A stretch of 64,000 nucleotides of DNA, from the NCBI GenBank assembly GCA_964532485.1, contig CAZHKE010000004.1:15501-79500 (forward strand), written 5' to 3'. The translations under genes were made by a program, and so were the position numbers. Source of the DNA: an uncultured Bifidobacteriaceae bacterium (GTDB taxonomy: Bacteria > Actinomycetota > Acidimicrobiia > IMCC26256 > PALSA-555). Shown one piece after another: positions 2,949-60,663 of the stretch. Position 1 is the first letter of the stretch; each line of letters begins with the position of its first letter. Below the pieces are notes generated by a model, which saw only the letters and a program-made list of their open reading frames with translations, made no database searches and was not told where the DNA came from.

Positions 2949-2979
2949 CTGACCCCGCCTCGGCAGCCCAAGTCGCCAG

Positions 2980-2996
2980 ATTATTAGACTGATTCG
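2980..2996 (+). promoter_or_regulatory. Recurrent 17-nt AT-rich promoter-proximal box, site E (ATTATTAGACTGATTCG), upstream of the NMO/PaaK/fusion/CbbQ operon
   Basis: 12/17 identical to site C. Shares ACTGATTCG exactly. Lies 78 nt before ATG 3075, oriented toward the gene. Confidence 0.5.
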
Positions 2997-3074: not shown

Positions 3075-4211
3075 ATGCGGACGCGGGTGTGCGAGCTGCT
3101 CGGGATCGAGTACCCGATCCTCGCGTTCAGCCACTGCCGGGACGTCGTCGCCGCGGTCACCAACTCGGGGGGCTTCGGCGTCCTCGGTGCCACCGCGCTC
3201 ACCCCGGAGCAGCTCGAGATCGACCTCGACTGGCTCGAGGCCGAGACGCGCGGCCGCCCGTTCGGCGTCGACGTGCTGTTTCCCGCGAGCTACGTGGGGC
3301 GTGACGACGCCCTCGACGCCGCCGCGCTCGAGGCACTGATCCCGCCGGAGCACCGGCGCTTCGTCGACGACCTGCTTCGCCGCTACGACGTGCCGGACTC
3401 ACCCGGCGGCGCAGACGGCGACGGCGACGCCGGGTCTGCGCTCGCGCTCGCGCCCGACCAGCTCGACCTGCTCGTCGAGGTCTCGCTGGCGCACCGAATC
3501 CGCCTCGTCGCCAACGCGTTGGGCCCGCCACCCCCCGATCTCGCCGCCCGCGCGCATGAACGAGACGTGCTCGTGGCCGCACTGGCGGGGTCGGTCGAGC
3601 ACGCCGAGCGCAACGTGGCCGCGGGCGCCGACCTGATCGTTGCCCAGGGGACCGAGGCCGGCGGGCACACCGGCGAGATCGCCACGATGGTGCTCGTCCC
3701 CGAGGTGGTCGACGCCGTCGCGCCGGTGCCCGTGCTGGCGGCAGGCGGCATCGCACGCGGGCGTCAGATCGCGGCCGCACTCGCGCTCGGGGCGGAAGGC
3801 GTGTGGACCGGTTCGGTGTGGCTGACCACGGACGAAGCCGAGACGCACCCGGTGGTCAAGCAGAAGATGTTGGCGGCCACGTCCCGCGACACCGTCCGGT
3901 CGCGCGCGGTCACCGGCAAGCCCGCGCGCCAGCTCCGCTCCGCCTGGACCGACGAGTGGGATGGTGCCGAGTCGCCCGGCTCGCTGCCGATGCCGCTACA
4001 GCCACTCCTGACCGACGACGCGCGGCGCCGCATCGAACGGGCGGCGTACCGTGACGGCTCGGGCGCGCAACAGCTCGTCAACTACTTCGTGGGCCAGGTC
4101 GTCGGGAGCATGCAGCAGGTGATGCCGGCCCGCCGCGTCGTGGCCGAGATGGTGGAGGAGCTCGCCGACACACTGCTCGCGCTCGACGGGTACCTGGAGC
4201 ACGCCGAGTGA
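3075..4211 (+). CDS. Nitronate monooxygenase / 2-nitropropane dioxygenase family FMN oxidoreductase (FabK-like)
   Basis: 378 aa. N-terminus reads MRTRVCELLGIEYPILAFSHCRDVVAAVTNSGGFGVLG; also GTEAGGHTGEIATMVL. The ATG at 3075 is preceded by GGAGGCGGAGG. Confidence 0.85.
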   Translation: MRTRVCELLGIEYPILAFSHCRDVVAAVTNSGGFGVLGATALTPEQLEIDLDWLEAETRGRPFGVDVLFPASYVGRDDALDAAALEALIPPEHRRFVDDLLRRYDVPDSPGGADGDGDAGSALALAPDQLDLLVEVSLAHRIRLVANALGPPPPDLAARAHERDVLVAALAGSVEHAERNVAAGADLIVAQGTEAGGHTGEIATMVLVPEVVDAVAPVPVLAAGGIARGRQIAAALALGAEGVWTGSVWLTTDEAETHPVVKQKMLAATSRDTVRSRAVTGKPARQLRSAWTDEWDGAESPGSLPMPLQPLLTDDARRRIERAAYRDGSGAQQLVNYFVGQVVGSMQQVMPARRVVAEMVEELADTLLALDGYLEHAE

Positions 4212-5485
4212 GCGGGGAGGACGAGCGCGAGCTGTGGGACCCGGCTGTCCAGGCTCTGGACCCGACCGAGGTCGAGGCCCGCGCGGCCGCCGGCCTTGCC
4301 GAGACGTGGGATCGCGTGTGGGCGCTGCCGTTCTACGCCGAGCGCTACCGCGCCGCCGGTCTGTCGCCGGGGCCGATGCCCGCCCTGTCCGACATCCCGC
4401 GCGTGACCAAGAGTGACCACCGCGCCGACGAGGCCGCACACCCCCCATTCGGCCGTCACCGCGCGGTCGCACTCGAGGACGCGATCCGTGTCGGGGTGTC
4501 GACCGGCACGACCGGCGCGCCGACGTTCATCTTCTACGGGAAACGGGATCTCGACGCGATGGTGCGGGTCGGCACACGCAACAACTGGCGACTCGGGCTG
4601 CGATCCGGCGACCGGTTCACCCACAGCTGGCCGCAGTACCTGTACCCGACCTCGGCGCACGGCGGGCGCCCCTACCTCGATCTCGGCGTCCTCGAGATCC
4701 CGGTGGGCCCACCGTTCTCCCCCGAGACCGCGGCCGAGCACCTTCGCGTCTGGGAGCGGCTCCGCCCCACCGGCTTCATGATGACGGCGTCGCAGTTCCA
4801 GACCTACGAGCGTGTCGGCGACGAGATCGGCATCGACTTCGCGGCGTGCATCGAGGGCAGCCTGCTCGTGTACCTGGATCTGGCCTGCCAGTTCGAGGCG
4901 CCACGGAAGCGGATCGAAGAGGCGTACGGCGTGCGCCTGCACAACCTGTCAGGCGCATCGGAGATCCCGGCCTTCAGCGTCAACGACAGCAGGTACCACC
5001 GGGGGTTCCAGGCCGCGGGCGATCACGTCCACATCGAGGTGTGCGACCCGATCACCGGCGCGGCGCTGCCCGACGGCGCCCGGGGCCATCTCGTGGTGTC
5101 GACCTTCGGTCTCGACGCTTGCTTCCTGCGCTACGACCTCGAGGACATCGTCGTTCGTGATACCGAACCCGACCCGACCGGCGAGACCGGCCCTCGCTAT
5201 GTCCTGATCGGCCGGGGCGCCGACGCGGTGACCGTCGACGGGCGAGATCCGATCTTCCCGCTCGACGTCCAGCTCGCGCTCGATGACCACGGCGCACCGG
5301 AGTTCCAGCTCGTGCCGGACGACGACACGTCGAGGCTTCACCTTCGAGTCGAGCACGATGGCGCGACCGGCGTGCTCGAGGGTCTGCTCGAGGAGCGCCT
5401 TGGTGTCGGCACGAGCGTCCAGGCAGTGGCGCCCGGGAGCCTGCCGCGAGCGGCCTTCAAGCCCCGGCGGATCGCGGCGGCATGA
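4208..5485 (+). CDS. PaaK / coenzyme F390 synthetase-type adenylate-forming enzyme (phenylacetate-CoA ligase-like), paralog 1
   Basis: 425 aa with the motif VSTGTTGAPTFIFYG, and PaaK-like length and layout. The GTG start overlaps the upstream stop (GTGA at 4208-4211). Confidence 0.8.
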   Translation: MSGEDERELWDPAVQALDPTEVEARAAAGLAETWDRVWALPFYAERYRAAGLSPGPMPALSDIPRVTKSDHRADEAAHPPFGRHRAVALEDAIRVGVSTGTTGAPTFIFYGKRDLDAMVRVGTRNNWRLGLRSGDRFTHSWPQYLYPTSAHGGRPYLDLGVLEIPVGPPFSPETAAEHLRVWERLRPTGFMMTASQFQTYERVGDEIGIDFAACIEGSLLVYLDLACQFEAPRKRIEEAYGVRLHNLSGASEIPAFSVNDSRYHRGFQAAGDHVHIEVCDPITGAALPDGARGHLVVSTFGLDACFLRYDLEDIVVRDTEPDPTGETGPRYVLIGRGADAVTVDGRDPIFPLDVQLALDDHGAPEFQLVPDDDTSRLHLRVEHDGATGVLEGLLEERLGVGTSVQAVAPGSLPRAAFKPRRIAAA

Positions 5486-8103
5486 CGCGTCGAGTGCTCG
5501 TGACGGGTGCGAGTGGAGTCTTCGGTCGTGACATCGCGACTCGACTGGCCCGGGCGGGTGCCGACGTCGTCGCGCTGGCGCGTCGCGAGGTCAGCATCCC
5601 GGGCGTCGAGTTCGTCGCCGGCGACATCCGCGACGCCGCCATCGTCGAGCAGGCGATGAAGGGCTGCGACGCGGTTGCGCACCTTGCGTGGGCCGTGTCG
5701 CCACTCAAGAGCAGGGACGACACGCACGACGTGAACGTGGGTGGCACGCAGAACGTGCTCGACGCAATGGACGCGACCGGATGTCGCCGCGTCGTGTTCT
5801 CGTCGTCGGTCACCGCATACGGTGCGTGGCCGGACAACCCGCCGCGCCTGCGCGAGACCGATCCGCTCCGCCCCGACCCGAGGATCTTGTACGCGTGGGA
5901 CAAGGCCCGCTGCGAGGAGCTGATCCTCGAGCGCGACCTCGACGCGGTGATCAGCCGGTCGTGCCTCGTCGTCGGTCGCCACATCGACAACTACGCGTTC
6001 CGGGTCTTCGCCGCTCCGATGCTCACGGCGCCGAAGGGCGAGATGCCGCTGTGGCAGTTCGTGCACCAGGAGGATGTCGGCCGCTTCCATGCCGACGCCG
6101 TGCTGGGTGACCGCACCGGCGTCGTGAACGTGGCCTGCGACGACGGCGTGCCGCTCGAGGAGATCGCCGAGGCGTTCGGCAAGCGGCTCGTGCACGTCGA
6201 CATCGACAAGATGGCGAAGGTCGTCGAGCTCGGGTGGAAGCACGACCTGATGGAGGTCGACCCCGACAGCCTCCAGGGCTTCCAGTACATGGCGGTCGCC
6301 GACACGACGAGACTGCGCGAGGAGTGGGGGTTCGAGCCCGCGTGGAGTGGGCGTGAGGCGATGCTCGACCTCGCGCGTTCGCTGACCCGAGTCGTGTACC
6401 TGGGCTACAAGGAGGTCCGCAAGCCGTGGCGACTCCGGTACGCGCGTACCGACATCCCGCCCGCGTATCCGCCGCTCGACGGCGTCGAGCTGGTCCAGGC
6501 ATCGGCGACGGGGGTCGGCGGCGAGTTCGACAGCGTGATCGATCCCCGCTTTCCGACGTTCTTCGCCACGAACCTCTCGGAGGCGTTCCCGGGTCCGATG
6601 ACGCCGCTGTCGCTCACCGTGAGCCTCGACGTGATGCGCGCCTCGTCCGACGGGATGGCCGACTTCCTCGGGCTCGAAGGCGATGTGAAGCGCGAGCTCC
6701 AGGCGCGTGGCGCCGCGGCCTTCGGGCACCGGATGTACGCGGGAGTCTCGGTCGTCCGCACGATGGCCGAGGCGATGCCGGGCATGACGCCGGAGGACAT
6801 CGATCACCAGTTCCTCGGTCTGGCGCGGACCGAGAGCACAACGAAGCGGCGGCCCTCTGTTCGCGAGGTGGCGCAAGGCGGCCGGTTGCTGGCGCACGTC
6901 GCGCCCCAGATCGCCGGGTTCGCACGCGAGATCGAGCGGGTCCAGGCCGAGGCACGTGTCCTCTTCCCCTCACCTGACGAGCTGGTCGGCATGACCGACC
7001 CGCAGCTGCTCGCGCACGTCGGGCTGGTGCACGACGAGCTCGGCCAGGCATGGAACGTCGCGTGCATCGGCAACATGATCGCCGGCGGCGCACTCGCCGC
7101 GGCCGAGCGGGCCGGTGCCGCCAACGCGGTCAGCGCCGCTGGTGGCGACTCCCCGTTGGTCAGCGCTGGGGCGTTGCTCGCCGTCGACGAGCTCGCGCGC
7201 TTGGCTCGTGAGCAGGCGAGGATCTCGGACGTCCTCGAGCGGGGCGTCCACGAGCAGACGCTCGACGCGCTACGGGAGGTCGCACCTTGGTGGGCCGCTC
7301 GCTTCGACGATCTGCTGCGCGACTTCGGGCACCGGGGACCGGGTGAGACCGAGCTCGAGAACCCGATGTTCTCCGACCGGCCTGATCTGCTCCTCGGGAC
7401 GATCGCGAAGGCGTTGCACGCGCCCGAGCGTCCCATGAGGCCGGAGCCCCCGTCCGGCGCGCTCGGGCGGCTCGCGGCGAGTGCGGTGAGTCGCGCGATG
7501 CGCACGCGCGAGCGGGCGCGTGATGCAGTTGTGCGTCTCACGCACGCCTTGCGGCTCGCGGCGCGCGAGCGCGCGCGACGGCTTGCGGAGGCGGGGGTCA
7601 TCGCCGATCCGGCCGACGTCTTCTACCTGAGCTACGCCGAGCTGCTCCACCCGCCGGCGGGCGTGGCGACCGCAGTGCCACGCCGCCGCGACGAACGGGA
7701 GCGTCTCAGGGCACTGCGGCTCCCGACCATGTTCACGCGCACGTGGGAGCCCGAGGCGAGCGACGCAGCGCTGGTCGCTCGGGGTGACCGCCTCAGCGGG
7801 ATCGCCGCCGCTCCGGGTGTCGCACGGGGTCGTGTGCGGATCCTGCGCGAGACGGGCGACGTGATCGAGCCCGGCGATGTGCTCGTCGCAGCCATCACCG
7901 ACACCGGCTGGACGCCGTTGTTCGCGTTCGCGTCCGCGGTGGTGACGGACATCGGTGGGCTGCTCTCACACCCCACGGTGGTCGCGCGGGAGTACGGGAT
8001 CCCGTGCGTCGTCGGGGTCGGAGACGCCACGCTGCGCTTGCGAGACGAGATGCTGGTCGAGGTCGACGGCGGGGGCGGCACCGTGCGCGTGCTCGAGACA
8101 TGA
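5482..8103 (+). CDS. Fusion protein: N-terminal NAD-dependent epimerase/dehydratase (extended SDR) domain, a central RPH/PpsA-like substrate-domain-like region, and a C-terminal PEP-utilizer phosphohistidine swivel domain
   Basis: 873 aa, one uninterrupted ORF. N-terminal domain: [18 protein letters not shown] (GxxGxxG) and YAWDK (YxxxK). Middle region: [19 protein letters not shown]-terminal domain: [54 protein letters not shown] overlap with the upstream gene at 5482-5485. Confidence 0.85.
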
Positions 8104-8912
8104 GCTCAGGCGACGCGGCGGTCCGGGCGGGCGACCGGCCCTTCTACGTCTCGGTCGGTGACGAGGAGACGATCTTCAAGGCCGCGCACCGACGCGGCCT
8201 GGCGGTGCTGCTCAAGGGACCCACCGGTACGGGCAAGACGCGCTTCGTCGAGGCCATGGCGCACGATCTCGGTCGGCCGTTGATCACCGTCGCATGCCAC
8301 GAGGACCTGACCGCGGCTGATCTCGTCGGCCGGTTCCTGTTGGAGGGGGGCGACACGGTCTGGGTCGACGGGCCGCTCACGCGCGCGGTGCGAGAGGGTG
8401 GGATCTGCTACCTCGACGAGGTGGTCGAGGCCCGCCAGGACACCACGGTCGTGCTGCACCCGCTGGCCGACCACCGCCGCGTGCTCGTGCTCGAGCGCCT
8501 CGGCGAGACGCTGGTCGCGCCGGATGGGTTCGGGCTGGTCGTGTCGTACAACCCGGGGTACCAGAGCGTGCTCAAGGACCTGAAGGACTCGACGCGCCAA
8601 CGGATGGTCGCGATCGAGCTCGGCTTCCCGCCCTCCGACGTGGAGGAGAAGGTGGTCGCGCACGAGGCAGGCGTGGACTCCGTGGTGGCGGCCGACCTCG
8701 TGCGGCTGGCGCAGGCCATCCGGCGCCTCGATCACTCGGGCCTGCGCGAGGTCGCGTCGACGCGGGTGCTGATCTCCGCCGGTCAGCTCGTCGTGGACGG
8801 GATCCCCGCACGTGCGGCGGCGCGCGCGGCGATCGCTGCACCGCTCACCGACGATCCCGGGCTCGCCGCCGGCCTGGCAGAGCTGGTGGACGCGTACCTC
8901 TCACCGGGGTGA
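8100..8912 (+). CDS. CbbQ/NirQ/NorQ/GpvN-family MoxR-class AAA+ ATPase
   Basis: Track ORF 8004..8912 was trimmed to ATG 8100, which overlaps the upstream stop (ATGA). Sequence reads [54 protein letters not shown] (Walker A) and [12 protein letters not shown] (Walker B). Length ~270 aa. Confidence 0.85.
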
Positions 8913-14684: not shown

Positions 14685-14757
14685 GGTGCCTCCCCCCCGG
14701 CGGTCGCCCGACCGGCATGCTGGCCGGCGCATCGCAACGACGAGCTTGCCTGCCGGA

Positions 14758-14801
14758 CGAATCAGTTGACGGATCTTACCGATGGGGAGATGGGGCGGCA
14801 A
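14758..14801 (-). promoter_or_regulatory. Putative promoter of the ABC importer operon (TTGCCG-17nt-TAAGAT), immediately followed by box site C (ATCCGTCAACTGATTCG)
   Basis: Read on the minus strand: -35 TTGCCG at 14801..14796, a 17-nt spacer, -10 TAAGAT at 14778..14773, and the box at 14774..14758. The GTG of the binding-protein gene is at 14684. Confidence 0.5.
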
Positions 14802-15942: not shown

Positions 15943-15989
15943 CGGTGCCCCCCAGGATCGAGCGCGCTGCGTCCGGCGGCATGGTATGA

Positions 15990-16006
15990 CTTCGCTACCT
16001 GATTCG
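15990..16006 (+). promoter_or_regulatory. Recurrent box, site F (CTTCGCTACCTGATTCG), upstream of SDR 16096
   Basis: 12/17 identical to site C. Its 5' part, CTTCGCTACCTG, matches 11/12 of the direct-repeat unit at 40292..40303. Confidence 0.45.
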
Positions 16007-16095
16007 AAAGCGCGAGCGAAGGAACGGCTGCGAGTGGGGTGACGGGGCCCGCAGCGACCGACCCAAGGTGAGGAGCGGGACCGCTGGATCTCGGT

Positions 16096-20585: not shown

Positions 20586-20624
20586 TCGGCTGCTCCTCCC
20601 GGGACCACGGGTCGCGGCATACCG

Positions 20625-20645
20625 TAAACTTCGTTTAATGATTTG
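20625..20645 (+). promoter_or_regulatory. Palindrome TAAACTTCGTTTA overlapping box site A (CTTCGTTTAATGATTTG), between the divergent P450 and hotdog-hydratase genes
   Basis: 5-bp arms TAAAC/GTTTA around TTC. The core AACTTCGTT recurs as its reverse complement at 25385..25393. The box is 13/17 identical to site B. It lies 17 nt before ATG 20663. Confidence 0.5.
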
Positions 20646-20662
20646 TCACGGGGCGGGAGTCC

Positions 20663-25295: not shown

Positions 25296-25384
25296 CGCCT
25301 GCTCCCGTTGCCTGGCGCGCTCGTCGCGGCTCGGGATGCCCGACCCGCGTCCGCTCGGCTGCTCTATCGCTCCTGCAATTGTCG

Positions 25385-25393
25385 AACGAAGTT
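25385..25393. promoter_or_regulatory. AACGAAGTT core (reverse complement of AACTTCGTT at 20627..20635), in the 195-bp divergent region between two amidohydrolase genes
   Basis: An exact 9-mer shared by two AT-rich intergenic patches. AAC-N3-GTT is reminiscent of TetR/KstR-type operators (AAC-N2-GTT). Confidence 0.4.
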
Positions 25394-25490
25394 ACCTATA
25401 GTCCGTCGGCAGCGCACGGGAGCCGGAGCACCGCCGAGGGGACCGATGGACGAGCAGGATCTTGCTCGCGAGCACGTGAGCCGGTAGCCC

Positions 25491-31077: not shown

Positions 31078-32006
31078 GGGGACGCGGTCAAGCGGGCGAT
31101 GAGCGTCTCCACGAAGTGATCGTGGTCGAAGCCGGTGCACAGGTCGATATCGGCGGGTGCTCCGGTGGTGCCCCAGTGGTCGATCACGAGGGCGCCGCGG
31201 GTCAGCTCACCGAGGCACTCCACGTCGGCCGCGACGCGACGCCAGCTGGCATGGTCAGGTCGGAGCGCTGCAGCCATGGCCACCGGATCGGGGAGGTCCA
31301 TGGCGCCAGGGAGATGGTTCGACGACACGAACTCGAAGTAGCGGCGGGTCACGTCGGCGGCGAACTTCGCGACCGGGTCAGATGACGCGCGCAGACGATC
31401 GACATCGGCAGCGGTGACAACGGCATCGCGTCGCGAGACGTCCCAGCCGACGACGCGCAGCGGGAGTCCCGAGCGGAGCACGATCCGAGCCGCTTCCGCG
31501 TCGCACCAGAAGTTGTACTCCGCGGCGGGCGTGACGTTTCCGACTCCGTCGCCGGCGCCGCCCATGACCACGACCTGCCCGACGCGTCGGCAGGTGTCCG
31601 CGTCGACATCGATCGCGTGTGCGAGGTTGGTCAGCGGGCCGAGGGCGACGTAGGTCAGCGTCGATCCGTGTTCGCGAAAGAGCGCGAGCGTCGCGTCGAG
31701 CGCGGCATCGGGATGCTCGGCGCCGACGGGATCGAAGTCGTGGCCACCGAGGCCGTCGTGCCCGTGGACGCTCTCGGCGCGTTCGAAGCCCTCCGCAGCG
31801 AGGCTCTCGGATGCTCCGCGGTGCACCGGCACGTCGAGCCGGCCCGCGACGCTGAGCGTCTTCAGCGCGTTGCGTGTCGCCTGGTCGACGTCGACGTTGC
31901 CCGCGACGGTCGTGAGTGCGACAACTTCGGTTCCCGGGGTGCGCAGGGCCAGGAGGATCGCGACCGCGTCGTCGGCGCCCGGGTCGGTATCGACGAGCAG
32001 CTTCAC
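31074..32006 (-). CDS. Nucleoside hydrolase (inosine-uridine preferring, IUNH family), copy 1
   Basis: 310 aa. N-terminal Ca/ribose-binding motif KLLVDTDPGADDAVAILLAL, and GPLTNLA. GTG start at 32006. Confidence 0.9.
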   Translation of the reverse strand: MKLLVDTDPGADDAVAILLALRTPGTEVVALTTVAGNVDVDQATRNALKTLSVAGRLDVPVHRGASESLAAEGFERAESVHGHDGLGGHDFDPVGAEHPDAALDATLALFREHGSTLTYVALGPLTNLAHAIDVDADTCRRVGQVVVMGGAGDGVGNVTPAAEYNFWCDAEAARIVLRSGLPLRVVGWDVSRRDAVVTAADVDRLRASSDPVAKFAADVTRRYFEFVSSNHLPGAMDLPDPVAMAAALRPDHASWRRVAADVECLGELTRGALVIDHWGTTGAPADIDLCTGFDHDHFVETLIARLTASP

Positions 32007-32152
32007 GTGAGCATGCCGCCTGCCGCCTTGACCGATTGGGCCGTGATCGCGCCCGCCGCGCCGTGCGCCCCGAGCTCGAGTGCGATCGCGCGCCCCAGTC
32101 CCTGGCTCGCGCCAGTGACCGCGGCGACGAAGCCGTCGAGGTCGTGCTGCAC
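32003..32152 (-). pseudogene. 49-codon stub that looks like the N-terminal Rossmann segment of an SDR. Either a gene remnant or a tiny leader ORF.
   Basis: In-frame GTG at 32152 gives VQHDLDGFVAAVTGASQGLGRAIALELGAHGAAGAITAQSVKAAGGMLT, then stop. TGASxGxGxAxA is the SDR cofactor motif, but the ORF ends about 200 aa early. Its stop overlaps the GTG of the nucleoside hydrolase (GTGA at 32003-32006). Confidence 0.35.
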
Positions 32153-32185
32153 TGCCGGGATGCTACGGACTTGACCCCAATCATG

Positions 32186-32202
32186 CGACTCAGTAAGAGG
32201 AT
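32186..32202 (-). promoter_or_regulatory. Recurrent box, site G (ATCCTCTTACTGAGTCG on the minus strand), upstream of the nucleoside hydrolase / SAHH-like operon
   Basis: 12/17 identical to site C. Shares the ATCC prefix and the ACTGA-TCG core. It lies 33 nt before the GTG of the 49-codon stub. Confidence 0.4.
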
Positions 32203-32282
32203 TGATGCACGGGCTCCTCGTGCACTCGCGGCAGGGAGGTTGTCGACGTGGTGCTACCACCGCCGACGACCGGAGGTGATCG

Positions 32283-34781: not shown

Positions 34782-34852
34782 ACCGATGGGTTAGCCTGGC
34801 TGACCGATAGGTAAGCACAGTCGACCGATCGAGTCGATTGGCTCGTCGACCG
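34782..34852. promoter_or_regulatory. Candidate TetR operator region between the E1-alpha gene and tetR
   Basis: ACCGAT hexamers occur at 34782, 34803 and 34824, exactly 21 bp apart. There is an imperfect palindrome CCGATCGA-G-TCGATTGG at 34825..34841 (7/8 arm match), and GTCGACCG is repeated at 34820 and 34845. Confidence 0.5.
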
Positions 34853-34871: not shown

Positions 34872-35489
34872 GTGAAGAAGGCGATCCTGGAGGCACGTCA
34901 GGAGGTCTCCAAGCAGGAGATCCTGAACGTCGCGAAGCGGCTGTTCGCCGAGCGGGGCGTGCGCGCCACGTCGCTGGCCCGGATCGCCGAGGCCGTCGGC
35001 GTCACCAAGGCCGCGCTCTACCACTACTTCTCGTCGAAGCACGAGATCGTCCTCGAGGCGGTGCGGGCCAACATCCGTGACTTCGACGAGGACGTCCTCG
35101 AGCCGAGCGAGGGGCTGTCGGCGAGCGAGCTGCTCGTCGAGCGGCTCGAGCGCAAGGTCGCGCGCGCCGAGCGCGACGGCCCGCTCGACCTTCGCTTCTT
35201 CTACACAGTGCTGCTTGAGGAGATCGGCGAGCCCGACATCGAAACGGTCATCCGCGAGTTCTGGGCGGCGGGGCGGCGTGAGCTCGCGGAGTTCGTACGC
35301 GGCGGCCAGCGCTCGGGTGAGTTCCGCGACGACGTCGACCTCGACAGCGTCCTCGACGTCCTGTCGGGGGCGATCATGGGCATCGACATACTGTGGCTGA
35401 ACGACGCCGAACAGGTTGACCTGCGCAGGGCGTACGGCATGGCGCTCGAGCAGACGCTCGCGATCCTCGCTCCCGGCGCACGGAGGTGA
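34872..35489 (+). CDS. TetR/AcrR family transcriptional regulator
   Basis: 205 aa with a GTG start. HTH region ILNVAKRLFAERGVRATSLARIAEAVGVTKAALYHYFSSK. Confidence 0.9.
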   Translation: MKKAILEARQEVSKQEILNVAKRLFAERGVRATSLARIAEAVGVTKAALYHYFSSKHEIVLEAVRANIRDFDEDVLEPSEGLSASELLVERLERKVARAERDGPLDLRFFYTVLLEEIGEPDIETVIREFWAAGRRELAEFVRGGQRSGEFRDDVDLDSVLDVLSGAIMGIDILWLNDAEQVDLRRAYGMALEQTLAILAPGARR

Positions 35490-40290: not shown

Positions 40291-40326
40291 CCTTCGATAC
40301 CTGCGCGTCCCTTCGATACCTGCGCG
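40291..40326. repeat. Perfect 17-bp tandem direct repeat CCTTCGATACCTGCGCG (x2, 19-bp period) in the divergent promoter region
   Basis: Copies lie at 40291..40307 and 40310..40326. They sit between GTG 40280 (LDI-like/amn operon, minus strand) and ATG 40377 (hypothetical/cytosine deaminase/upp operon, plus strand). Confidence 0.85.
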
Positions 40327-40376
40327 AAGCCGCAAGCCTTGCGCGCCGCCGCAACGATACGGCATCCTGCGGCACC

Positions 40377-40985
40377 ATGTCCGTTCCTTCGAGCCCCCCC
40401 TCGGGACTGCCCGAAGACGCCTGGGTGCTGCTGCACGAGCTGCGTCTGCGCGGGTTGATGCCCGAGTTCGACGACGGGCTCGCCGACACCCTGTGCTCGG
40501 GTGGCCTGGCCCAGCGCAAGGGCGCGTTCTTGGCGCTCACTCCCGAGGGGCGCGCCGCGCACGCGACGTGGGCGCGTCTCGAGCCTGGGACCGAGGGTGA
40601 GGTGGCTGCGCAGCGGGCGTACGCCCAGTTCCTGCCGCTCAACCGCGCGCTGCTCCAGGTCAGCACCGACTGGCAGGTACGGCCCGGCAACGTCCCGAAC
40701 GATCACCGCGACGCGCCGTACGACTGGGAGGTGATCGACCGGTTCGTCGCACTCGACGAGCGAGCCGGTCCGGTCGTGCGGCGCCTCGGCACGGCTGTCG
40801 ATCGCTTCGGCGGCTACCGGCCGCGGCTGCGCGAAGCCGTGCGAAAGGTCCAGGACGGCCAGCACGAGTGGCTCCTGTCGCCGCGCTGCGACTCGTACCA
40901 CACGGTCTGGATGCAGATGCACGAGGATCTCTTGCTCGCGCTCGGCCTCGACCGTGCGACCGAGGAACAGGCGCAGAGCTCATAG
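40377..40985 (+). CDS. Hypothetical protein (202 aa). Possibly a regulator; function unknown.
   Basis: Only the last 202 codons of track ORF 39195..40985 are kept, from ATG 40377. The rest is antisense to the LDI-like gene. Sequence: MSVPSSPPSGLPEDAWVLLHELRLRGLMPEF...WEVIDRFVALDERAGPVVRRLG. Codon usage looks genuine. I recognised no family. Confidence 0.6.
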   Translation: MSVPSSPPSGLPEDAWVLLHELRLRGLMPEFDDGLADTLCSGGLAQRKGAFLALTPEGRAAHATWARLEPGTEGEVAAQRAYAQFLPLNRALLQVSTDWQVRPGNVPNDHRDAPYDWEVIDRFVALDERAGPVVRRLGTAVDRFGGYRPRLREAVRKVQDGQHEWLLSPRCDSYHTVWMQMHEDLLLALGLDRATEEQAQSS

Positions 40986-44322: not shown

Positions 44323-44404
44323 GGCGCTAGCCTCGGCTTCGTTGCGGGATCGTGCAAGTCTTGCGCGCGAGCGACAGATCAGCCGAGCGGGAGCCCGACG
44401 GGAC

Positions 44405-46648: not shown

Positions 46649-46683
46649 GACGGCATCTTGCGGAGCACCGCAATCATTGTCAA
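46649..46683 (-). promoter_or_regulatory. Putative promoter giving a leaderless P450 transcript
   Basis: Read on the minus strand: TTGACA (46683..46678), 17 nt, CAAGAT (46660..46655), 6 nt, then GTG 46648. There is no Shine-Dalgarno. Confidence 0.45.
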
Positions 46684-47566: not shown

Positions 47567-49288
47567 TCACGGGGGATCCGCTCCCGGCGTCGACGCGCCG
47601 TCAGCCATGAGCTCGACGTCGCCGCGCGTGCCGTCCACGGTGACCGTCTGACCGGTCGCGAGGCGCGTCGAGCAGTCCTTGACGTTGATGACACACGGGA
47701 TCCCGAGCTCGCGGGCGATCACCGCGCCGTGCGAGAGCGCGCCGCCGAGGTCGATCACCGCCGCGGCGGCGTCGAGGAAGAGCGGTGTCCACGCCGGGTC
47801 GGTGGTGCGCGCCACGAGGACCTCACCCGGCTGGAGGTCGGCGGCGAACGGATCGGTGACGACCCGCACCTTGGCGGTGGCCATGCCCGGCGACGCGCCG
47901 AGCCCGTGCAACACCGGGCTGTCTGTCACCCCGGACCCGCCGACCGGCGCGGACGGGAGCAGCCCGAGCTGGCGAATGCGCTCGTCGGGAACGACGTCGA
48001 CCGAGCCGGGCGCCGCGAGGAACAGCTCGGGGAGCTCGAGGACGCGCGCGCGCTCGTGCACGCCGCGACGCCGCGCGACGTCGTCACGGCGATCAGGCGG
48101 GTTGGCCCGCACCACGTCGGCGACCACCTCGTCGAACGTGAGGAACCATCCGTCCTCGGGACGGTCGATCGCGCCACGGTCGACGAGCCGTCGCGCGGCC
48201 TCGCGGGCAGCGAGCCGGAGCCGCGCCACGCCCAACACCTCGGGCACCTTCGTGTTCTCCCGCCAGCGCAGGTGATGCTCGAGGCTCCGGAGCAGCCCGG
48301 CGAGAACTGGCCGGCGCGGTCCGGCATCCGCGCGAAGCCGCGCGCGCGCCGCGGCGACATCGCGTTCGACCGCGCGGTTGCGCTCGTCGCCGCGCGACCT
48401 CGTCTGCTCGACGAGCATCTCGAGGTACCGGTCGTCCTCGCCCCACGGGCGTGACGCGAGCTCGTACTCGATCGGTCCGCGGAACCCGTACTCCGTACGC
48501 CACGCGTCGAGTGTCATCAAGCCGTCGCCGACGCGACCGAGTGCAGTCATCGCATCGCTCGTGTGGATCCCGCCGATGTTGGTCATCGCGCGAGCCGCCA
48601 GTGCCGGACCCTCGTCCCCGCTGGTGCGCGTCGCGAGCTTCACGAGCTGCTCGTAGACGCTCGCTGCGATCATGTTCGACACGAGGAGCGGGACGCGCCA
48701 ACGCTCTGCGTTGACTGCGTAGAACGCGAGCTCTGCGACGAGCTCGGAGTCGTCGACGGCCGCCCAGTCGAGGTCAAGCGCCTGCTCCCAACGGCGACGA
48801 TTCTCCGCCTCGTAGACGCGGGAGTCGCGGGGGTATCGCCGCATCGCGCGCAGGACCCGCGCGCCGACCGAGGCGATCTGGCGTGGGCTGCCGCCGCCCG
48901 CCGGCTCGGCCCAGTCCGGGTCGGGCGGCAGACCGAAGTACTGCTCGCCGACCGCCTGCGCCGACCAGCCCGGCACGGCATCGGCCATGCGGAGCGTCGG
49001 CTCGAGCCCGACGGCGACGAACCCGTAGAACACGCCGGCACAGTCGACGACCGGCGCGCGCTCGATCAGGCCGAGCACGTCGGTGTACGTGGTCGGCAAC
49101 GAGCGGATCTGGGGCACCGCGACCGCCGTCTGCGTGAGCGGCGTCACCGGGTTCGGCCACTGGTCGGCGCCGTTGGCCCGGGTGTAGAGCCGCGGCTCGG
49201 CGGGCCACGTGCAGAGCTCGTCGTCGAGGTTCGCGAGGTCGCGCACGAGGTCCTCGGGTGTGTGCGCCGCCCTGTTGGGTCGCGTCAT
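47567..49288 (-). CDS. PEP-utilizer swivel-histidine protein without a recognisable ATP-grasp domain (RPH/PpsA-like substrate region plus mobile His domain), paralog b
   Basis: Track ORF 47567..49369 was trimmed to ATG 49288 (AAGGAG upstream). N-terminal ANGADQWPNPVTPLTQ. C-terminal GASPGMATAKVRVV...QPGEVLVARTTDPAWTPLFLDAAAAVIDLGGALSHGAVIARELGIPCVINV. Length ~573 aa. Confidence 0.85.
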   Translation of the reverse strand: MTRPNRAAHTPEDLVRDLANLDDELCTWPAEPRLYTRANGADQWPNPVTPLTQTAVAVPQIRSLPTTYTDVLGLIERAPVVDCAGVFYGFVAVGLEPTLRMADAVPGWSAQAVGEQYFGLPPDPDWAEPAGGGSPRQIASVGARVLRAMRRYPRDSRVYEAENRRRWEQALDLDWAAVDDSELVAELAFYAVNAERWRVPLLVSNMIAASVYEQLVKLATRTSGDEGPALAARAMTNIGGIHTSDAMTALGRVGDGLMTLDAWRTEYGFRGPIEYELASRPWGEDDRYLEMLVEQTRSRGDERNRAVERDVAAARARLRADAGPRRPVLAGLLRSLEHHLRWRENTKVPEVLGVARLRLAAREAARRLVDRGAIDRPEDGWFLTFDEVVADVVRANPPDRRDDVARRRGVHERARVLELPELFLAAPGSVDVVPDERIRQLGLLPSAPVGGSGVTDSPVLHGLGASPGMATAKVRVVTDPFAADLQPGEVLVARTTDPAWTPLFLDAAAAVIDLGGALSHGAVIARELGIPCVINVKDCSTRLATGQTVTVDGTRGDVELMADGASTPGADPP

Positions 49289-49304
49289 GGGCTCTCGCAC
49301 TCCT

Positions 49305-50162
49305 TCACGAGAGCCGGCGCAGGATGCCGTGCTCGGCGACCGCGGTCCCGTGGCCAGCCGCACCCGCATCGAGTGCCATGCACTCCTCGTAGGCCGCGAA
49401 CGTCGGCCCGCGCCGTTCGACCCCCATCGGTGCCCAGAACCCGACGCTGCTGCCGGCGCGCAACGTCAACGGACCGGTGCCCTCGACGACGACATCGAGT
49501 GCCCCCAGCAGCCCGGAGGCGGTCCGTGTGATCTCGGCGCTCACCACGGGCGTGGCGCTCGTGCCGAGCCGGTAGCCGCCGACCCGTGTCCCGCCGTCGG
49601 GCTCGAGGAACTTCGTCACGGTCAGGTCCCAATCGTCGAAGCACGCTCCGAGTGCGAGGTACTCGACGAACATCAGCGACTCGTCACGGAAGCCCCACGT
49701 GCGGTCGCGGAACCCGCGTGCCTCGACGTCGACGCGCCGATCGGCGATGATCAAGGTTCCGGTGACGTCGGCACCTTGCTGGTAGTGGGTGAGGGCGGGG
49801 TGTCCGGGCAACGGCGGGATCAGGTCGAGCGCGGTGTAGTCGGCGGGCACGTGGCGCGGCGTGGCGATGAGGTCGAGCGACATCCCTTCCGCGCGGACGC
49901 GGACGGGACCGTCGACGCCGAAGTCGATCGAGTCGCCGGTGAAGGTCGACGGTCCGAGGGGTTCGACGACCTCGGCGAGCCGACCGTCGACGACCACGCT
50001 CGCGCGAGCGCGACCGCCGTGGCCGGGCGACGTCGACACGTGGACCGCGCCACAGACGCCTCGCTCCTGGTCGAAGAACGAGAGGAACGCGTTCTCCCGC
50101 CATGGTGCGGTCTCGTCGTCCCGGGCGTGGAAGGGCTCGGCGAGTGGACCCCAGGTCGTCAC
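49305..50162 (-). CDS. Hypothetical protein (285 aa), beta-rich. No family recognised.
   Basis: Track ORF 49305..50390 was trimmed to GTG 50162, which overlaps the upstream stop (GTGA). Sequence: VTTWGPLAEPFHARDDETAPWRENAFLSFFDQERGVCGAVHVSTS...RGFRDRTWGFRDE. Confidence 0.65.
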   Translation of the reverse strand: MTTWGPLAEPFHARDDETAPWRENAFLSFFDQERGVCGAVHVSTSPGHGGRARASVVVDGRLAEVVEPLGPSTFTGDSIDFGVDGPVRVRAEGMSLDLIATPRHVPADYTALDLIPPLPGHPALTHYQQGADVTGTLIIADRRVDVEARGFRDRTWGFRDESLMFVEYLALGACFDDWDLTVTKFLEPDGGTRVGGYRLGTSATPVVSAEITRTASGLLGALDVVVEGTGPLTLRAGSSVGFWAPMGVERRGPTFAAYEECMALDAGAAGHGTAVAEHGILRRLS

Positions 50163-51400: not shown

Positions 51401-51419
51401 GGGAGCTCTCCTCGGGTGA

Positions 51420-52325: not shown

Positions 52326-52330
52326 CGGCG

Positions 52331-53197
52331 TCAGGCCTTCGCCTCGGGACGCCAGCTCGGCGGGCGCTTCTCCTGGAAGCTGCGCATGCCCTCGACGGCC
52401 TCCGGCGACCGCATTGCGAGCAGGAAGTCGTCGAGGCGAATCGGCACCAATGCCTGGTTCACCATCCGCTTCGCGATCGCGCGCGCGCCGGGTGCGGTGC
52501 GCCGGACGAGCGCGGTCACCGATTCCATCTCTTCCTCGAGCCGTTCGTGTGCGACGACCTTGGCAACGAGACCGGCCCGTTCCGCGGCGTCGGCGTCGAG
52601 CTCCTCCGCCGTGTAGATCATCCACCGTGCCTTTGCCAGCCCGATGTGCATCGGGAGGCGAGGAGGGACGAACGGGTCGACGAGACCACGCAGCAGCTCC
52701 GGGACGCGGAAGCGCGCGTGCTCCGACGCGATCACGAGGTCGCTCATCAAGACGATGATCAAGCCGGCCGCCTGGCACAGGCCGTTGACCGCGGTGATCA
52801 CCACCTTCGAGCACCGTTCGAAGCTCTGGTAGGGGAAGGCGCCCTCGGCGGCCGCGAGCTTGCCGACGAGATCGGCTGCCCACTCGTCGGCGCCGATCGA
52901 GAGGTCGCCGCCGGGCACGAAGTACTGGTCGCCGGTCGCGCTGATCGTGATCACGTCGACCGAGTCGTCGAGCTCTGCGAGCAGCAGGGCGCGGCGGAGG
53001 CCCTCGTACATGGCCGGCGTGAGCGCGTTCGCCTTGTCGGGACGGTCGATGACGAGTCGGGCGACGCCGTCGCGAGCCTCGAAGTGCAACCCTTCGGTCT
53101 CGCGCCACTGCGCGCCCGTGTCGACCACCGCAGCATCTTGCGGACGGCCTCTCGAATTGTCAAACATGGTGAGACGATTCGACCCCAGGGTCTTCAT
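52331..53197 (-). CDS. Enoyl-CoA hydratase/isomerase family protein
   Basis: Track ORF 52331..53386 was trimmed to ATG 53197 (GGAGAAGAGGG upstream). ATG 53167 is an alternative. VARLVIDRPDKANAL, VITAVNGLCQAAGLIIV. Confidence 0.8.
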   Translation of the reverse strand: MKTLGSNRLTMFDNSRGRPQDAAVVDTGAQWRETEGLHFEARDGVARLVIDRPDKANALTPAMYEGLRRALLLAELDDSVDVITISATGDQYFVPGGDLSIGADEWAADLVGKLAAAEGAFPYQSFERCSKVVITAVNGLCQAAGLIIVLMSDLVIASEHARFRVPELLRGLVDPFVPPRLPMHIGLAKARWMIYTAEELDADAAERAGLVAKVVAHERLEEEMESVTALVRRTAPGARAIAKRMVNQALVPIRLDDFLLAMRSPEAVEGMRSFQEKRPPSWRPEAKA

Positions 53198-53258
53198 GCC
53201 CTCTTCTCCCGGCGCGTCGCGCGCGTCACGGTGTGAACGGCACCGGCCGGCTGACCAC

Positions 53259-60593: not shown

Positions 60594-60646
60594 CCAGCGC
60601 TGCTCCCGCGTGGTCGACGGCTTGCGTCGCCGACCGTATCCTATGT

Positions 60647-60663
60647 ATCCGTTAACTGATTTG
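60647..60663 (+). promoter_or_regulatory. Recurrent box, site B (ATCCGTTAACTGATTTG), upstream of the P450/amidohydrolase/FAD-oxidoreductase operon
   Basis: 15/17 identical to site C; both differences are T/C transitions. It lies 22 nt before ATG 60686. Confidence 0.55.

What the first reader, a model, noticed from the sequence alone, without database searches (positions are those of the whole stretch)
14758..14774. A 17-nt AT-rich box recurs in six promoter regions, always pointing at the downstream gene
The six sites, read in the direction of the downstream gene, are:
- C: ATCCGTCAACTGATTCG (14774..14758, minus strand);
- B: ATCCGTTAACTGATTTG (60647..60663);
- E: ATTATTAGACTGATTCG (2980..2996);
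- F: CTTCGCTACCTGATTCG (15990..16006);
- G: ATCCTCTTACTGAGTCG (32202..32186, minus strand);
- A: CTTCGTTTAATGATTTG (20629..20645).

B and C are 15/17 identical. E, F and G are each 12/17 identical to C, and A is 13/17 identical to B. All sites lie 17-89 nt upstream of a start codon.

The operons they precede are: the swivel-His operon; the ABC importer/BKACE operon; the SDR/FAD-oxidase/deaminase operon; the hotdog hydratase; the nucleoside hydrolase/SAHH operon; and a P450 operon.

In site C the box directly abuts a good -35/-10 pair, so it could be an operator at the transcription start. Alternatively TyAACT may itself be a -10 element followed by a conserved GATTyG. Either way it suggests that the oddly mixed gene content is one regulon.
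Basis: seen in the sequence. Interest (0 to 1): 0.7.

Follow-up and report, generated by a model that had tools for sequence, protein, structure and literature searches.

The report
Shared promoter-region control motif, binder unknown
A short DNA motif (core TGATTYG) really does recur in front of six gene clusters of a breakdown-pathway island in an uncultured Acidimicrobiia bacterium and is conserved in its relatives, so it is most likely the docking site of a still unidentified gene regulator: a sound but ordinary kind of finding.

Summary
The recurrence is far beyond chance. An unbiased scan of all 23 intergenic regions picks box B as the best seed (z about 11, 0 of 60 shuffles). TGATT[C/G/T]G occurs 7 times in the window, 6 of them in the 4.5% that is intergenic. 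Each site is recovered when it is left out of the model.

Related metagenome contigs and MAGs (uncultured Acidimicrobiia, 72-94% protein identity) keep the boxes at the orthologous positions. There they form 30-35-nt conserved islands in otherwise diverged spacers.

The unit is larger than 17 nt. An upstream block carries -10-like hexamers, often on both strands. A 3-5-nt variable stretch follows, then an invariant (A/C)(C/A)TGATT[Y/G]G core. The motif is asymmetric: the B/C palindrome is not kept in orthologs. No RNA structure or Rfam family fits.

Best reading: the operator of an unidentified trans-acting regulator. It would lie near the start point of the same-strand promoter and over the -35/spacer of the divergent promoter.

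The TetR and the 202-aa protein suggested as binders each have a different conserved upstream element and are not supported. "Always pointing at the gene" is uninformative for 5 of 6 sites, and the register of site G is ambiguous. This is a new regulon motif of a known kind.

The parts
2976..2996 (+). Site E: CCAGATTATTAGACTGATTCG, core TGATTCG at 2990-2996. It lies between the CoA-transferase gene (minus strand) and the NMO / PaaK-like ligase / epimerase-swivel / CbbQ operon (plus strand).
   Evidence: Exact match. PWM 25.9. Left-out rank 6 of 127,956. No divergent ortholog was obtained; only the same strain was found (L030). Weakest left half of the six.
14757..14785 (-). Site C: CCATCGGTAAGATCCGTCAACTGATTCGT, core TGATTCG at 14764-14758. 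TAAGAT lies at 14778-14773 and TTGCCG at 14801-14796 (17-nt spacer). It sits upstream of the ABC importer / BKACE operon. This is the only site in a co-directional spacer.
   Evidence: The ortholog in L005 reads CCATCGGTAAGATTCGTTTACTGATTCGT. In the more distant L001 the TGAT of the core is replaced: TCCGTCAACacacTCGTC.
15977..16010 (+). Site F: CGGCATGGTATGACTTCGCTACCTGATTCGAAAG, core at 16000-16006. It lies between the AveC-like gene (minus strand) and the SDR / amine oxidase / deaminase operon (plus strand).
   Evidence: This is the only block of near-continuous invariant columns in the four-way alignment of the whole spacer (A2). Orthologs are in L005, L001, L002 and L006.
20621..20650 (+). 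Site A: ACCGTAAACTTCGTTTAATGATTTGTCACG, core at 20639-20645. It lies between a P450 gene (minus strand) and the hotdog hydratase gene (plus strand).
   Evidence: Alignment A4. The flanks ACCGTAAACTTCG and TGATTTGTCACG are invariant in L004, L005, L001, L002 and L006, while the central 5 nt vary. The orthologs carry a better core context (CTACCTGATTTG) than the window copy.
32177..32204 (-). Site G: CAATCCTCTTACTGAGTCGCATGATTGG, with two overlapping registers. It lies between the SDR-fragment / nucleoside hydrolase / SAHH operon (minus strand) and a cytidine-deaminase-like gene (plus strand).
   Evidence: This is the weakest member. The geometry differs: the only same-strand TANNNT (TAGCAT) lies 18 nt downstream of the core and 7 nt before the GTG start.
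60633..60663 (+). Site B: ACCGTATCCTATGTATCCGTTAACTGATTTG, core at 60657-60663. It lies between the ACAD/ACAD/ECH operon (minus strand) and the P450 / amidohydrolase / amine oxidase operon (plus strand).
   Evidence: Top seed of the unbiased scan. Alignment A3. Orthologs are in L033 (90%), L034 (77%) and L035 (81%).
25375..25396 (-). Probable degenerate seventh site (H): GGTAACTTCGTTCGACAATTGC, in the divergent spacer between two amidohydrolase genes. The core is CAATTGC instead of TGATTYG.
   Evidence: PWM only 7.9 in the window. The corresponding spacers in relatives read TAACTTCGTTAGATGATTC (L006) and GATAACTTCGTCAGACGATTC (L008), in register with site A.
53165..53181 (+). Half-site-like element (I): CATGGTGAGACGATTCG. 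A -10-like hexamer is directly followed by GATTCG. It lies in the spacer between an ECH operon (minus strand) and a swivel-domain gene (plus strand).
   Evidence: PWM 11.9 to 12.1. It is conserved as GGTGAGATGATTCAG in L034 and GGTAAGACGATTCGC in L035. Its geometry differs from the six main sites, so membership is uncertain.
40291..40328 (+). Tandem 19-nt repeat CCTTCGATACCTGCGCG(TC/AA), two copies. Each copy carries the left and central part of the F-type box (CTTCGnTACCTG) without the TGATT core. It lies upstream of the 202-aa orphan gene.
   Evidence: 3 hits to CTTCGNTACCTG against 0.35 expected. One copy is present in the 85% relative L036 and none in the 71% relative L038. Its relation to the box is unexplained.

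Best explanation
The box is the conserved core of a compact promoter-operator module. It is used at six or more promoter regions of a catabolic island in an uncultured Acidimicrobiia lineage.

**Layout of each module (about 30-35 bp).**
- An upstream block carries -10-like hexamers. In the divergent spacers there is usually a strict TANNNT on the opposite strand. In C, A and H there is one on the same strand.
- A 3-5-bp variable stretch follows.
- Then comes an invariant (A/C)(C/A)TGATT[Y/G]G core.

**Proposed mechanism.**
- The core is the binding site of a sequence-specific DNA-binding regulator encoded outside the window.
- Bound there, the regulator would lie over positions about +1 to +8 of the same-strand promoter. 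It would also lie over the -35/spacer of the divergent promoter. One molecule, or one oligomer, could then shut both operons until an inducer releases it.
- The regulator is most likely a repressor.

**Shown:** the motif, its non-random placement, its conservation at orthologous positions, its asymmetry, and the absence of RNA structure.

**Inferred:** the start sites, that a protein binds, and the sign of regulation.
For: **Recurrence beyond chance.**

**Phylogenetic footprints.** In spacers that are otherwise unalignable between relatives at 72-94% protein identity, the box region is the one block of near-continuous invariant columns.
- F: 15977-16010.
- B: 60633-60661.
- A: 20621-20650.
- C: conserved in L005.

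**Tied to transcription, not translation.**
- Conservation extends about 27 nt upstream of the core, beyond any plausible transcript start.
- The distance from the T of TGATT to the start codon varies from 24 to about 108 nt. The distance to the -10-like hexamer stays at 8-9 nt in C, A, F and B.

**Site C.**
- It is the only unidirectional case.
- It has TTGCCG-17-TAAGAT followed 9 nt later by the core, and no opposite-strand TANNNT.

**Divergent spacers.**
- In F, A, B and H a strict opposite-strand TANNNT starts 18-24 nt upstream of the core. By my reading of these sequences, this places the core at that promoter's -35/spacer.
- E also has an opposite-strand TANNNT (TAATCT), but only 12 nt upstream of the core.

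**No RNA signal.**
- Rfam finds nothing in the window.
- The six putative leaders fold no better than shuffles, with z from -0.41 to +0.99.

**Not a general promoter feature.** Other promoters in the same island lack the box and share a different motif.
Against: - No cognate regulator was found. The only recognised TF gene in the window (the TetR) and the wHTH-like orphan each have other conserved upstream elements. No TF gene appears in any fetched relative locus.
- The motif has no conserved dyad. The B/C palindrome decays in L034 and L035.
- The average dyad (54%) only equals the maximum of 300 shuffles (95th percentile 0.46). The 12-bp direct repeat (55%) exceeds the 95th percentile (0.50) but not the shuffle maximum of 0.64. 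This is unusual for common homodimeric repressors.
- Geometry is not uniform. F, B and G lack a strict same-strand TANNNT at the expected place, and in G the only good -10 lies downstream of the core.
- The tool's sigma-70 scan finds no strict promoter at C, F, A or B.
- A G-like element in L001 sits between two convergent genes, where no promoter is expected.
- Start sites are not mapped.
Confidence: 0.55

Rival explanations
1. The box is a binding site for an activator. It would work mainly for the opposite-strand genes as a class-II-like site overlapping their weak -35 region, not as a repressor operator for the same-strand genes.
For: - Strict TANNNT hexamers are more regular on the opposite strand (F, A, B, H, plus E at a shorter distance) than on the same strand (C, A, H).
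- By my reading of these sequences, the core falls at the -35/spacer of those promoters, and their -35 hexamers are poor (TTTCGA, CTCAAA).
- An asymmetric, orientation-dependent site is typical of monomeric activators such as MarA/SoxS (my knowledge).
Against: - Site C has no opposite-strand gene and no opposite-strand TANNNT, yet it has one of the best boxes and is conserved in L005.
- No AraC/XylS-type or other activator gene is present in the window or in the related loci.
Confidence: 0.15
2. The box is a promoter-intrinsic element read by RNA polymerase itself. It could be the promoter of an alternative sigma factor. It could instead be a conserved start-site / initially transcribed sequence that sets promoter strength or promoter-proximal pausing. 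No separate regulator would bind it.
For: - The motif is asymmetric and has a fixed orientation relative to a -10-like hexamer.
- No regulator gene was found nearby.
Against: - The hexamer proposed as the -10 is the least conserved part, and only E fits TANNNT.
- The two conserved blocks are about 15 nt apart centre to centre. That does not fit the roughly 23-nt spacing of -35/-10 promoters of the sigma-70 family (my knowledge).
- Other promoters of the island (TTGACA-N17-CAAGAT, apparently leaderless) lack the core.
Confidence: 0.12
3. The conserved core acts at the RNA level. If transcripts start 2-3 nt before it, all six leaders begin with A(C)UGAUUYG. An RNA-binding protein, a small RNA or a ribonuclease could recognise this linear tag and coordinate the operons after transcription.
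For: - The inferred starts (an A at -2 or -3 in every site) put the invariant core at the extreme 5' end of the leaders.
- The core has a fixed strand orientation.
Against: - Conservation extends about 27 nt upstream of the core into DNA that would not be transcribed.
- No Rfam family matches. There is no excess folding. Orthologous leaders share nothing beyond the core.
- In G the likely -10 lies downstream of the core, so the core would not be transcribed there.
Confidence: 0.1
4. There is no shared function. The similarity would be residual homology from duplicated promoter regions, or a chance product of AT-rich promoter composition.
For: - The island contains paralogous operons: three swivel-domain / PaaK-like / BKACE sets.
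- The whole-window count of the core word is not above expectation.
Against: - The composition-preserving shuffle test gives z about 11.
- The paralogous proteins are only 38-51% identical. By inference, neutral spacer homology would be gone at that divergence.
- The boxes precede non-paralogous genes in different arrangements.
- Purifying selection is visible at orthologous sites.
Confidence: 0.03

Closest known systems
Operator regulons of actinobacterial catabolic islands, e.g. the KstR and KstR2 (TetR-family) regulons of steroid catabolism (motifs recalled from my own knowledge)
   Same: - One short motif recurs in many, often divergent, intergenic regions of an island rich in P450, acyl-CoA dehydrogenase, enoyl-CoA hydratase and hotdog hydratase genes.
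- The motif overlaps promoter elements and marks a co-regulated set.
   Different: - KstR and KstR2 operators are palindromes bound by a TetR dimer whose gene belongs to the regulon.
- Here the motif is asymmetric, and no KstR pattern is present (0 hits).
- The single KstR2-like hit (25453-25466) is elsewhere.
- The window's TetR shows no link to the box.
Asymmetric, orientation-dependent sites such as the marbox of MarA/SoxS/Rob (AraC/XylS family; my knowledge)
   Same: - A non-palindromic, degenerate site.
- Its orientation relative to the promoter is fixed.
- It is shared by functionally mixed operons.
   Different: - Marboxes lie upstream of or over the -35 region and activate.
- Here the core lies at about +1 of the same-strand promoter.
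- No AraC-family gene was found.
Direct-repeat boxes of actinobacterial response regulators and SARPs, such as GlnR a/b sites and PHO boxes with an 11-bp period (my knowledge)
   Same: A weak second copy (GATYCG / ACTTCG) lies 12 bp upstream of GATTYG. It is perfect in the L005 copy of site C (GATTCGTT twice).
   Different: - The period is 12 bp, not 10-11 bp.
- The repeat is only marginally above shuffles.
- The sequences are unrelated.
- The position is over -10/+1 rather than upstream of the -35.
Compact bidirectional promoters sharing one operator (general bacterial arrangement; my knowledge)
   Same: Opposite-strand TANNNT hexamers sit back to back within the conserved upstream block (ACCG-TA-AACT in site A). 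The single core lies at +1 of one promoter and at the -35/spacer of the other.
   Different: - Start sites are not mapped.
- Site C uses the same module in a unidirectional context.

Membership tests
Transcription-factor operator in a promoter region (generic) | Recurs in non-coding upstream regions more often than composition allows | tested here: met
   z about 11, 0 of 60 shuffles; 6 of 7 TGATTBG in the 4.5% intergenic fraction, p = 5.5e-8; leave-one-out ranks 5 to 11 of 127,956.
Transcription-factor operator in a promoter region (generic) | Conserved at orthologous positions while the surrounding spacer diverges | tested here: met
   Alignments A2, A3 and A4. C is conserved in L005. There is an exception: C lost its core in L001. 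E could not be tested.
Transcription-factor operator in a promoter region (generic) | Constant position relative to the core promoter elements or start site | tested here: inconclusive
   The T of TGATT lies 8-9 nt after a -10-like hexamer in C, A, F and B. Only C, A and H have a strict TANNNT there, and G differs. The strict sigma-70 scan is negative. No start sites are known.
Transcription-factor operator in a promoter region (generic) | Internal symmetry matching the oligomer that binds (dyad or tandem repeat) | tested here: inconclusive
   The dyad centred at -3.5 scores 54% (shuffle 95th percentile 46%, maximum 54%). The direct repeat of period 12 scores 55% (95th percentile 50%, maximum 64%). 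The dyad is not kept in orthologs of B.
Transcription-factor operator in a promoter region (generic) | A cognate DNA-binding protein exists and binds the site | not testable with these tools
   No candidate emerged. Whole genomes could not be scanned, and binding needs an experiment.
TetR-family operator of the window's TetR (34872-35489) | A palindromic operator, normally also present in the regulator's own promoter region | tested here: not met
   The box is not palindromic in orthologs. The TetR upstream spacer conserves ACCGAT-type repeats, and its GATTGG piece is not conserved in L040.
TetR-family operator of the window's TetR (34872-35489) | The regulator co-occurs with the motif in related genomes | tested here: inconclusive
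   Of 19 homologs with E <= 1e-20, none is listed on a contig of 2,463,246, 646,909 or 341,006 bases, the lengths of the long box-bearing contigs. L001 and L038 lack the whole segment that holds the TetR. Other contigs of those MAGs could not be checked.
   Only E (TAGACT) fits. The hexamer is the most variable part among orthologs of A.
Structured cis-regulatory RNA (riboswitch or leader; Rfam) | A match to a known family, or a conserved and stable secondary structure | tested here: not met
   No Rfam hit at gathering threshold. Leader folding z-scores run from -0.41 to +0.99. Orthologous leaders do not align beyond the core.
KstR / KstR2 operators | TnnAACnnGTTnnA or AnCAAGnnCTTGnT (patterns recalled from memory) | tested here: not met
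   0 hits for the KstR pattern. One one-mismatch KstR2-like hit at 25453-25466 is not at any box.

The most novel reading that the evidence does not exclude
The invariant core is not a conventional dimeric-repressor operator. One option is a monomeric or otherwise unconventional DNA binder not recognisable as a transcription factor in these loci. Another is a linear 5'-terminal RNA tag (A(C)UGAUUYG) on all leaders of the regulon. Either would coordinate a multi-operon catabolic island in an uncultured Acidimicrobiia lineage by a mechanism not yet described for Actinomycetota.
Probability: 0.12. Interest if true: 0.6.

Novelty: new member of a known kind. Interest (0 to 1): 0.35.

Why it matters
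- The motif shows that six functionally mixed operons of a catabolic island form one regulatory unit. They encode an ABC importer, P450s, SDR / amine oxidase / deaminase enzymes, nucleoside hydrolase / SAHH-like enzymes, swivel-domain enzymes and acyl-CoA dehydrogenases.
- The organism is known only from metagenomes, and the motif sets this unit apart from a second unit in the same island that carries a different motif.
- This helps to delimit the pathway.
- It also gives a concrete bait (the TGATTYG module) for finding the regulator and its inducer, and hence the unknown substrate.
- The finding does not change any general view of bacterial gene regulation.

Tried and rejected
**Readings of the box that were tested and rejected**
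- **Palindrome reading of B/C (ATCnGTTAACnGAT).** Rejected because the left arm drifts in L034 and L035 while the right arm is invariant.
- **Central hexamer as the -10.** Rejected.
- **RNA element.** No Rfam hit, no stable fold and no leader conservation.
- **KstR / KstR2 motifs.** Absent at the boxes.
- **MITE or repeat-element reading.** Similarity is confined to about 23-30 nt, and the sites are conserved at orthologous positions.

**Candidate regulators**
- **The 202-aa orphan as binder.**
  - Its family is far wider than the motif, with more than 800 homologs.
  - Its orthologs conserve a GCAAGCCTTGC palindrome instead of the box.
  - Its AlphaFold model is confident (pLDDT 93.9). The N-terminus has a helix-helix-hairpin-helix layout like a winged helix.
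  - It has no significant PDB match. The best is PadR at E 0.38.
- **The TetR as binder.** No support.
- **Search for a regulator gene in relatives.** None was found in about 200 kb of related loci.

**Searches that were unhelpful or led nowhere**
- **Simple k-mer sharing statistic.** It was dominated by GC-rich words and uninformative. It was replaced by the composition-weighted seed test.
- **Extending the window.**
  - Gene 58 is not on record.
  - Gene 57 returned only a 2.6-kb contig.
  - L030 adds 5.3 kb on the left with no TF and only a degenerate E-like sequence.
- **Literature search.** Searches for the core word and for Acidimicrobiia P450 clusters found nothing relevant.

Full report
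**1. Setting**

The window is 70.6% G+C. A codon-usage gene caller gives 59 genes plus one missed SDR. Pfam annotation shows a catabolic island. It holds:
- several P450s
- acyl-CoA dehydrogenases
- enoyl-CoA hydratases
- BKACE enzymes
- swivel-domain (PEP-utilizer) proteins
- PaaK-like ligases
- amidohydrolases
- amine oxidases
- nucleoside hydrolases
- SAHH-like proteins and deaminases
- an ABC importer
- one TetR

The closest genomes are uncultured Acidimicrobiia MAGs.

**2. The observation**

All six 17-mers are exact, and the quoted identities are right. All lie between genes.

The core word is not over-represented in the window as a whole:
- CTGATTYG: 4 occurrences against 2.0 expected
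- TGATTBG: 7 against 8.6 expected

What is non-random is placement plus flanks:
- 6 of 7 TGATTBG lie in the 4.5% of bases that are intergenic (p = 5.5e-8).
- I ran a discovery-corrected test. Every 17-mer of the 23 intergenic regions served as a seed, and I summed the five best composition-weighted matches in other regions. Box B comes out as the best seed of all: 143.4 against 120.3 +/- 2.1 for shuffled spacers, 0 of 60 reaching it.
- A PWM spanning -15 to +7 around the T of TGATT scores the six sites 23.7-34.7. The next independent position scores 11.9.
- When each family is left out of the model, A, B, C and F rank 5th, E ranks 6th and G ranks 11th among 127,956 positions.

**3. Caveats on the observation**

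- Five of the six spacers are divergent, so a box there points at some gene whichever way it lies. Only C is informative, since genes 11 and 12 are both on the minus strand.
- G has two overlapping registers 9 nt apart. The related elements in L001 and L002 conserve ATGATTGG / ACGATTCG rather than CTGAGTCG. G is the weakest member either way.
- The promoter at C (TTGCCG-17-TAAGAT) matches 8 of 12 positions and fails the tool's strict threshold.

**4. Comparative evidence**

*Sources of related loci*
- A scan of reference genomes with the AveC-like protein gave two syntenic Acidimicrobiia MAG loci, L001 and L002, at about 72-84% protein identity.
- A metagenome scan with the hotdog protein gave L004-L008 (100-82% identity) plus distant loci.
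- Homologs of the P450 downstream of B gave L033-L035 (90-77%).

*Conservation at each site*
- In all close relatives the boxes are present at the orthologous places.
- F: whole-spacer alignment shows the box region (15977-16010, CGGCATG.TATGACTT.G.TACCTGATT.GAAAG) as the only block of near-continuous invariant columns.
- B: ACCGTATCCT.TGTAT....TAACTGATT.
- A: ACCGTAAACTTCG.T...TGATTTGTCACG.
- C: kept in L005 as CCATCGGTAAGATTCGTTTACTGATTCGT. Its core is lost in the more distant L001.
- Orthologs of the weak site A carry a stronger core context (CTACCTGATTTG).

*Range and further candidates*
- Distant relatives at 35-48% identity have no box.
- Those at 67-73% have a different gene order, with no spacer upstream of the gene.
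- The motif is therefore confined to a narrow clade.
- A profile search found a probable seventh family (H). The window copy at 25375-25396 is degenerate (CAATTGC), but L006 and L008 read TAACTTCGTTAGATGATTC and GATAACTTCGTCAGACGATTC.
- A half-site-like element (I) at 53165-53181 is also conserved in relatives.

**5. Anatomy**

Aligned on the T of TGATT, each ortholog set shows three parts:
- an upstream conserved block, about -27 to -7
- a 3-5-nt variable stretch
- an invariant block from about -4 to +6

T at -9 is present in all six window sites.

*Same-strand promoter elements*
- A strict same-strand TANNNT starts at -14 in C (TAAGAT) and A (TAAACT), and at -15 in H (TAACTT).
- F and B have TATGAC and TATGTA there.
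- An A at -2 or -3 in every site would be the expected start point.

*Opposite-strand promoter elements*
- A strict opposite-strand TANNNT lies 18-24 nt upstream of the core in F (TACCAT), A (TACGGT), B (TAGGAT) and H (TATAGT).
- It is absent in C, which has no divergent gene.
- By my reading of these sequences, the core therefore sits at about +1 to +8 of the same-strand promoter. It also sits at the -35/spacer of the divergent promoter.

*Symmetry*
- Symmetry is weak. The dyad centred at -3.5 scores 54% and the 12-bp direct repeat 55%. Both are only marginally above shuffles.
- The near-palindrome of B and C is not maintained in L034 and L035.
- The direct repeat is perfect only in the L005 copy of C (GATTCGTT twice).

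**6. RNA-level alternatives**

- Rfam finds nothing in the window.
- The six putative leaders fold no better than shuffles.
- Orthologous leaders do not align beyond the core.
- Conservation extends well upstream of any plausible start.
- The distance to the start codon varies from 24 to about 108 nt.

This argues for a DNA-level function tied to transcription initiation.

**7. Candidate regulators**

*The 202-aa orphan (40377-40985)*
- It has no Pfam or NCBIfam match.
- It belongs to a large, well conserved actinobacterial family, some members of which NCBI labels MarR family.
- Its AlphaFold model is confident (pLDDT 93.9), with an N-terminal winged-helix-like layout. It has no significant PDB neighbour.
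- Upstream of its orthologs the conserved element is the palindrome CCGCAAGCCTTGC, not the box.

*The TetR (34872-35489)*
- It has few homologs, none listed on a contig with the length of a long box-bearing MAG contig.
- Its upstream region conserves ACCGAT-type repeats, while the GATTGG piece is not conserved.
- L001 and L038 lack the whole segment that carries the TetR, yet L001 keeps boxes A and F.

*Other loci*
- No other transcription-factor gene is seen in the window or in the fetched relative loci.
- The binder, if any, is encoded elsewhere.

**8. Interpretation**

The best-supported reading is an operator for an unidentified trans-acting regulator, embedded in a compact and often bidirectional promoter module. 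It is most likely a repressor site, because it overlaps the inferred start of one promoter and the -35/spacer of the other.

Rivals that remain possible:
- an activator site for the opposite-strand genes, contradicted by C
- a promoter-intrinsic element
- a 5'-terminal RNA tag

Residual homology or chance is effectively excluded.

The island holds at least one further motif family. It includes GCAAGnCTTGC and related CAAG/CTTG elements, and the TTGACAAT...CCGCAAGATGC promoters. The box therefore defines one of at least two regulons, not the whole island.

**9. Novelty**

Nothing comparable is in Rfam or in the searched literature. KstR/KstR2-type patterns do not match.

This is a new motif and regulon of a familiar kind in an uncultured lineage. 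Two features are mildly unusual: the asymmetry of the site and the absence of a local regulator.

Noticed in passing
window 40291-40328: Tandem 19-nt direct repeat CCTTCGATACCTGCGCG, two copies, upstream of the 202-aa orphan gene. Each copy matches the left and central part of the F-type box (CTTCGnTACCTG; 3 hits against 0.35 expected) but lacks TGATT. There is one copy in the 85% relative L036 and none in L038.
   Followed up: partly
window 40332-40342, 44354-44364 and 25452-25467; L036 and L038 upstream of orthologs of the 202-aa gene: A second motif family: perfect palindromes GCAAGCCTTGC and GCAAGTCTTGC in two divergent spacers. The first is conserved upstream of orthologs of the 202-aa gene. 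A KstR2-like GAGCAGGATCTTGCTC lies before the amidohydrolase/ACAD operon. This probably marks a separate regulon of the same island.
   Followed up: partly
window 46649-46683 (-) and 53129-53163 (-): Two paralogous promoter-like stretches, TTGACAAT..(N)..CCGCAAGATGC. Each has TTGACA-N17-CAAGAT followed 6 nt later by the GTG start of a P450 gene or an enoyl-CoA hydratase operon. The transcripts therefore look leaderless.
   Followed up: no
window 34782-34829: Three ACCGAT(N)G(G)GT repeats spaced exactly 21 bp apart, upstream of the TetR / E1-dehydrogenase divergent pair. The first two repeats and the following GGTAAGCAC are conserved in the 89% relative L040; the third is not.
   Followed up: partly
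window 40377-40985: The 202-aa orphan belongs to a large, strongly conserved actinobacterial family (more than 800 homologs at 56-85% identity) with no Pfam or NCBIfam model. Its AlphaFold model is very confident (pLDDT 93.9), with an N-terminal winged-helix-like layout and a helical C-domain. There is no significant PDB match.
   Followed up: partly
L001 273-310; L002 about 300-330: An element related to site G (AATCATCGAACTGAGTAAGATGATTG, arms CCAATC/GATTG 17 nt apart) sits in L001 between two convergent genes. These are orthologs of window genes 35 and 24, and no promoter is expected there. The roughly 9-kb window segment between genes 24 and 35, which includes site G and the TetR, is absent at that place in L001 and L038. 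This suggests an insertion or deletion with one end at the element.
   Followed up: partly
window 32003-32152 (-): A 49-codon ORF encodes only the N-terminal Rossmann motif of an SDR. It overlaps by 4 nt the start of the nucleoside hydrolase gene. It is probably a truncated or frameshifted gene remnant directly downstream of site G.
   Followed up: no
window 4208-8912 and 47567-54950; L030 1842-4460: Three paralogous sets of swivel-domain (PEP-utilizer / Rph_4th) proteins occur with PaaK-like ligases and BKACE enzymes (38-51% identity between copies). One further copy lies just left of the window. Its upstream spacer (L030 1721-1841) holds a degenerate E-like sequence, CCAGATGATTGTTGTTCGGCTGATCC.
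   Followed up: partly
whole window: TGATTBG is nearly absent from coding sequence (1 occurrence), although dinucleotide shuffles of the whole window predict 8.6 in total. This is probably a by-product of the roughly 88-90% G+C at third codon positions. Whole-window shuffles are therefore a poor null model for AT-rich words here.
   Followed up: no
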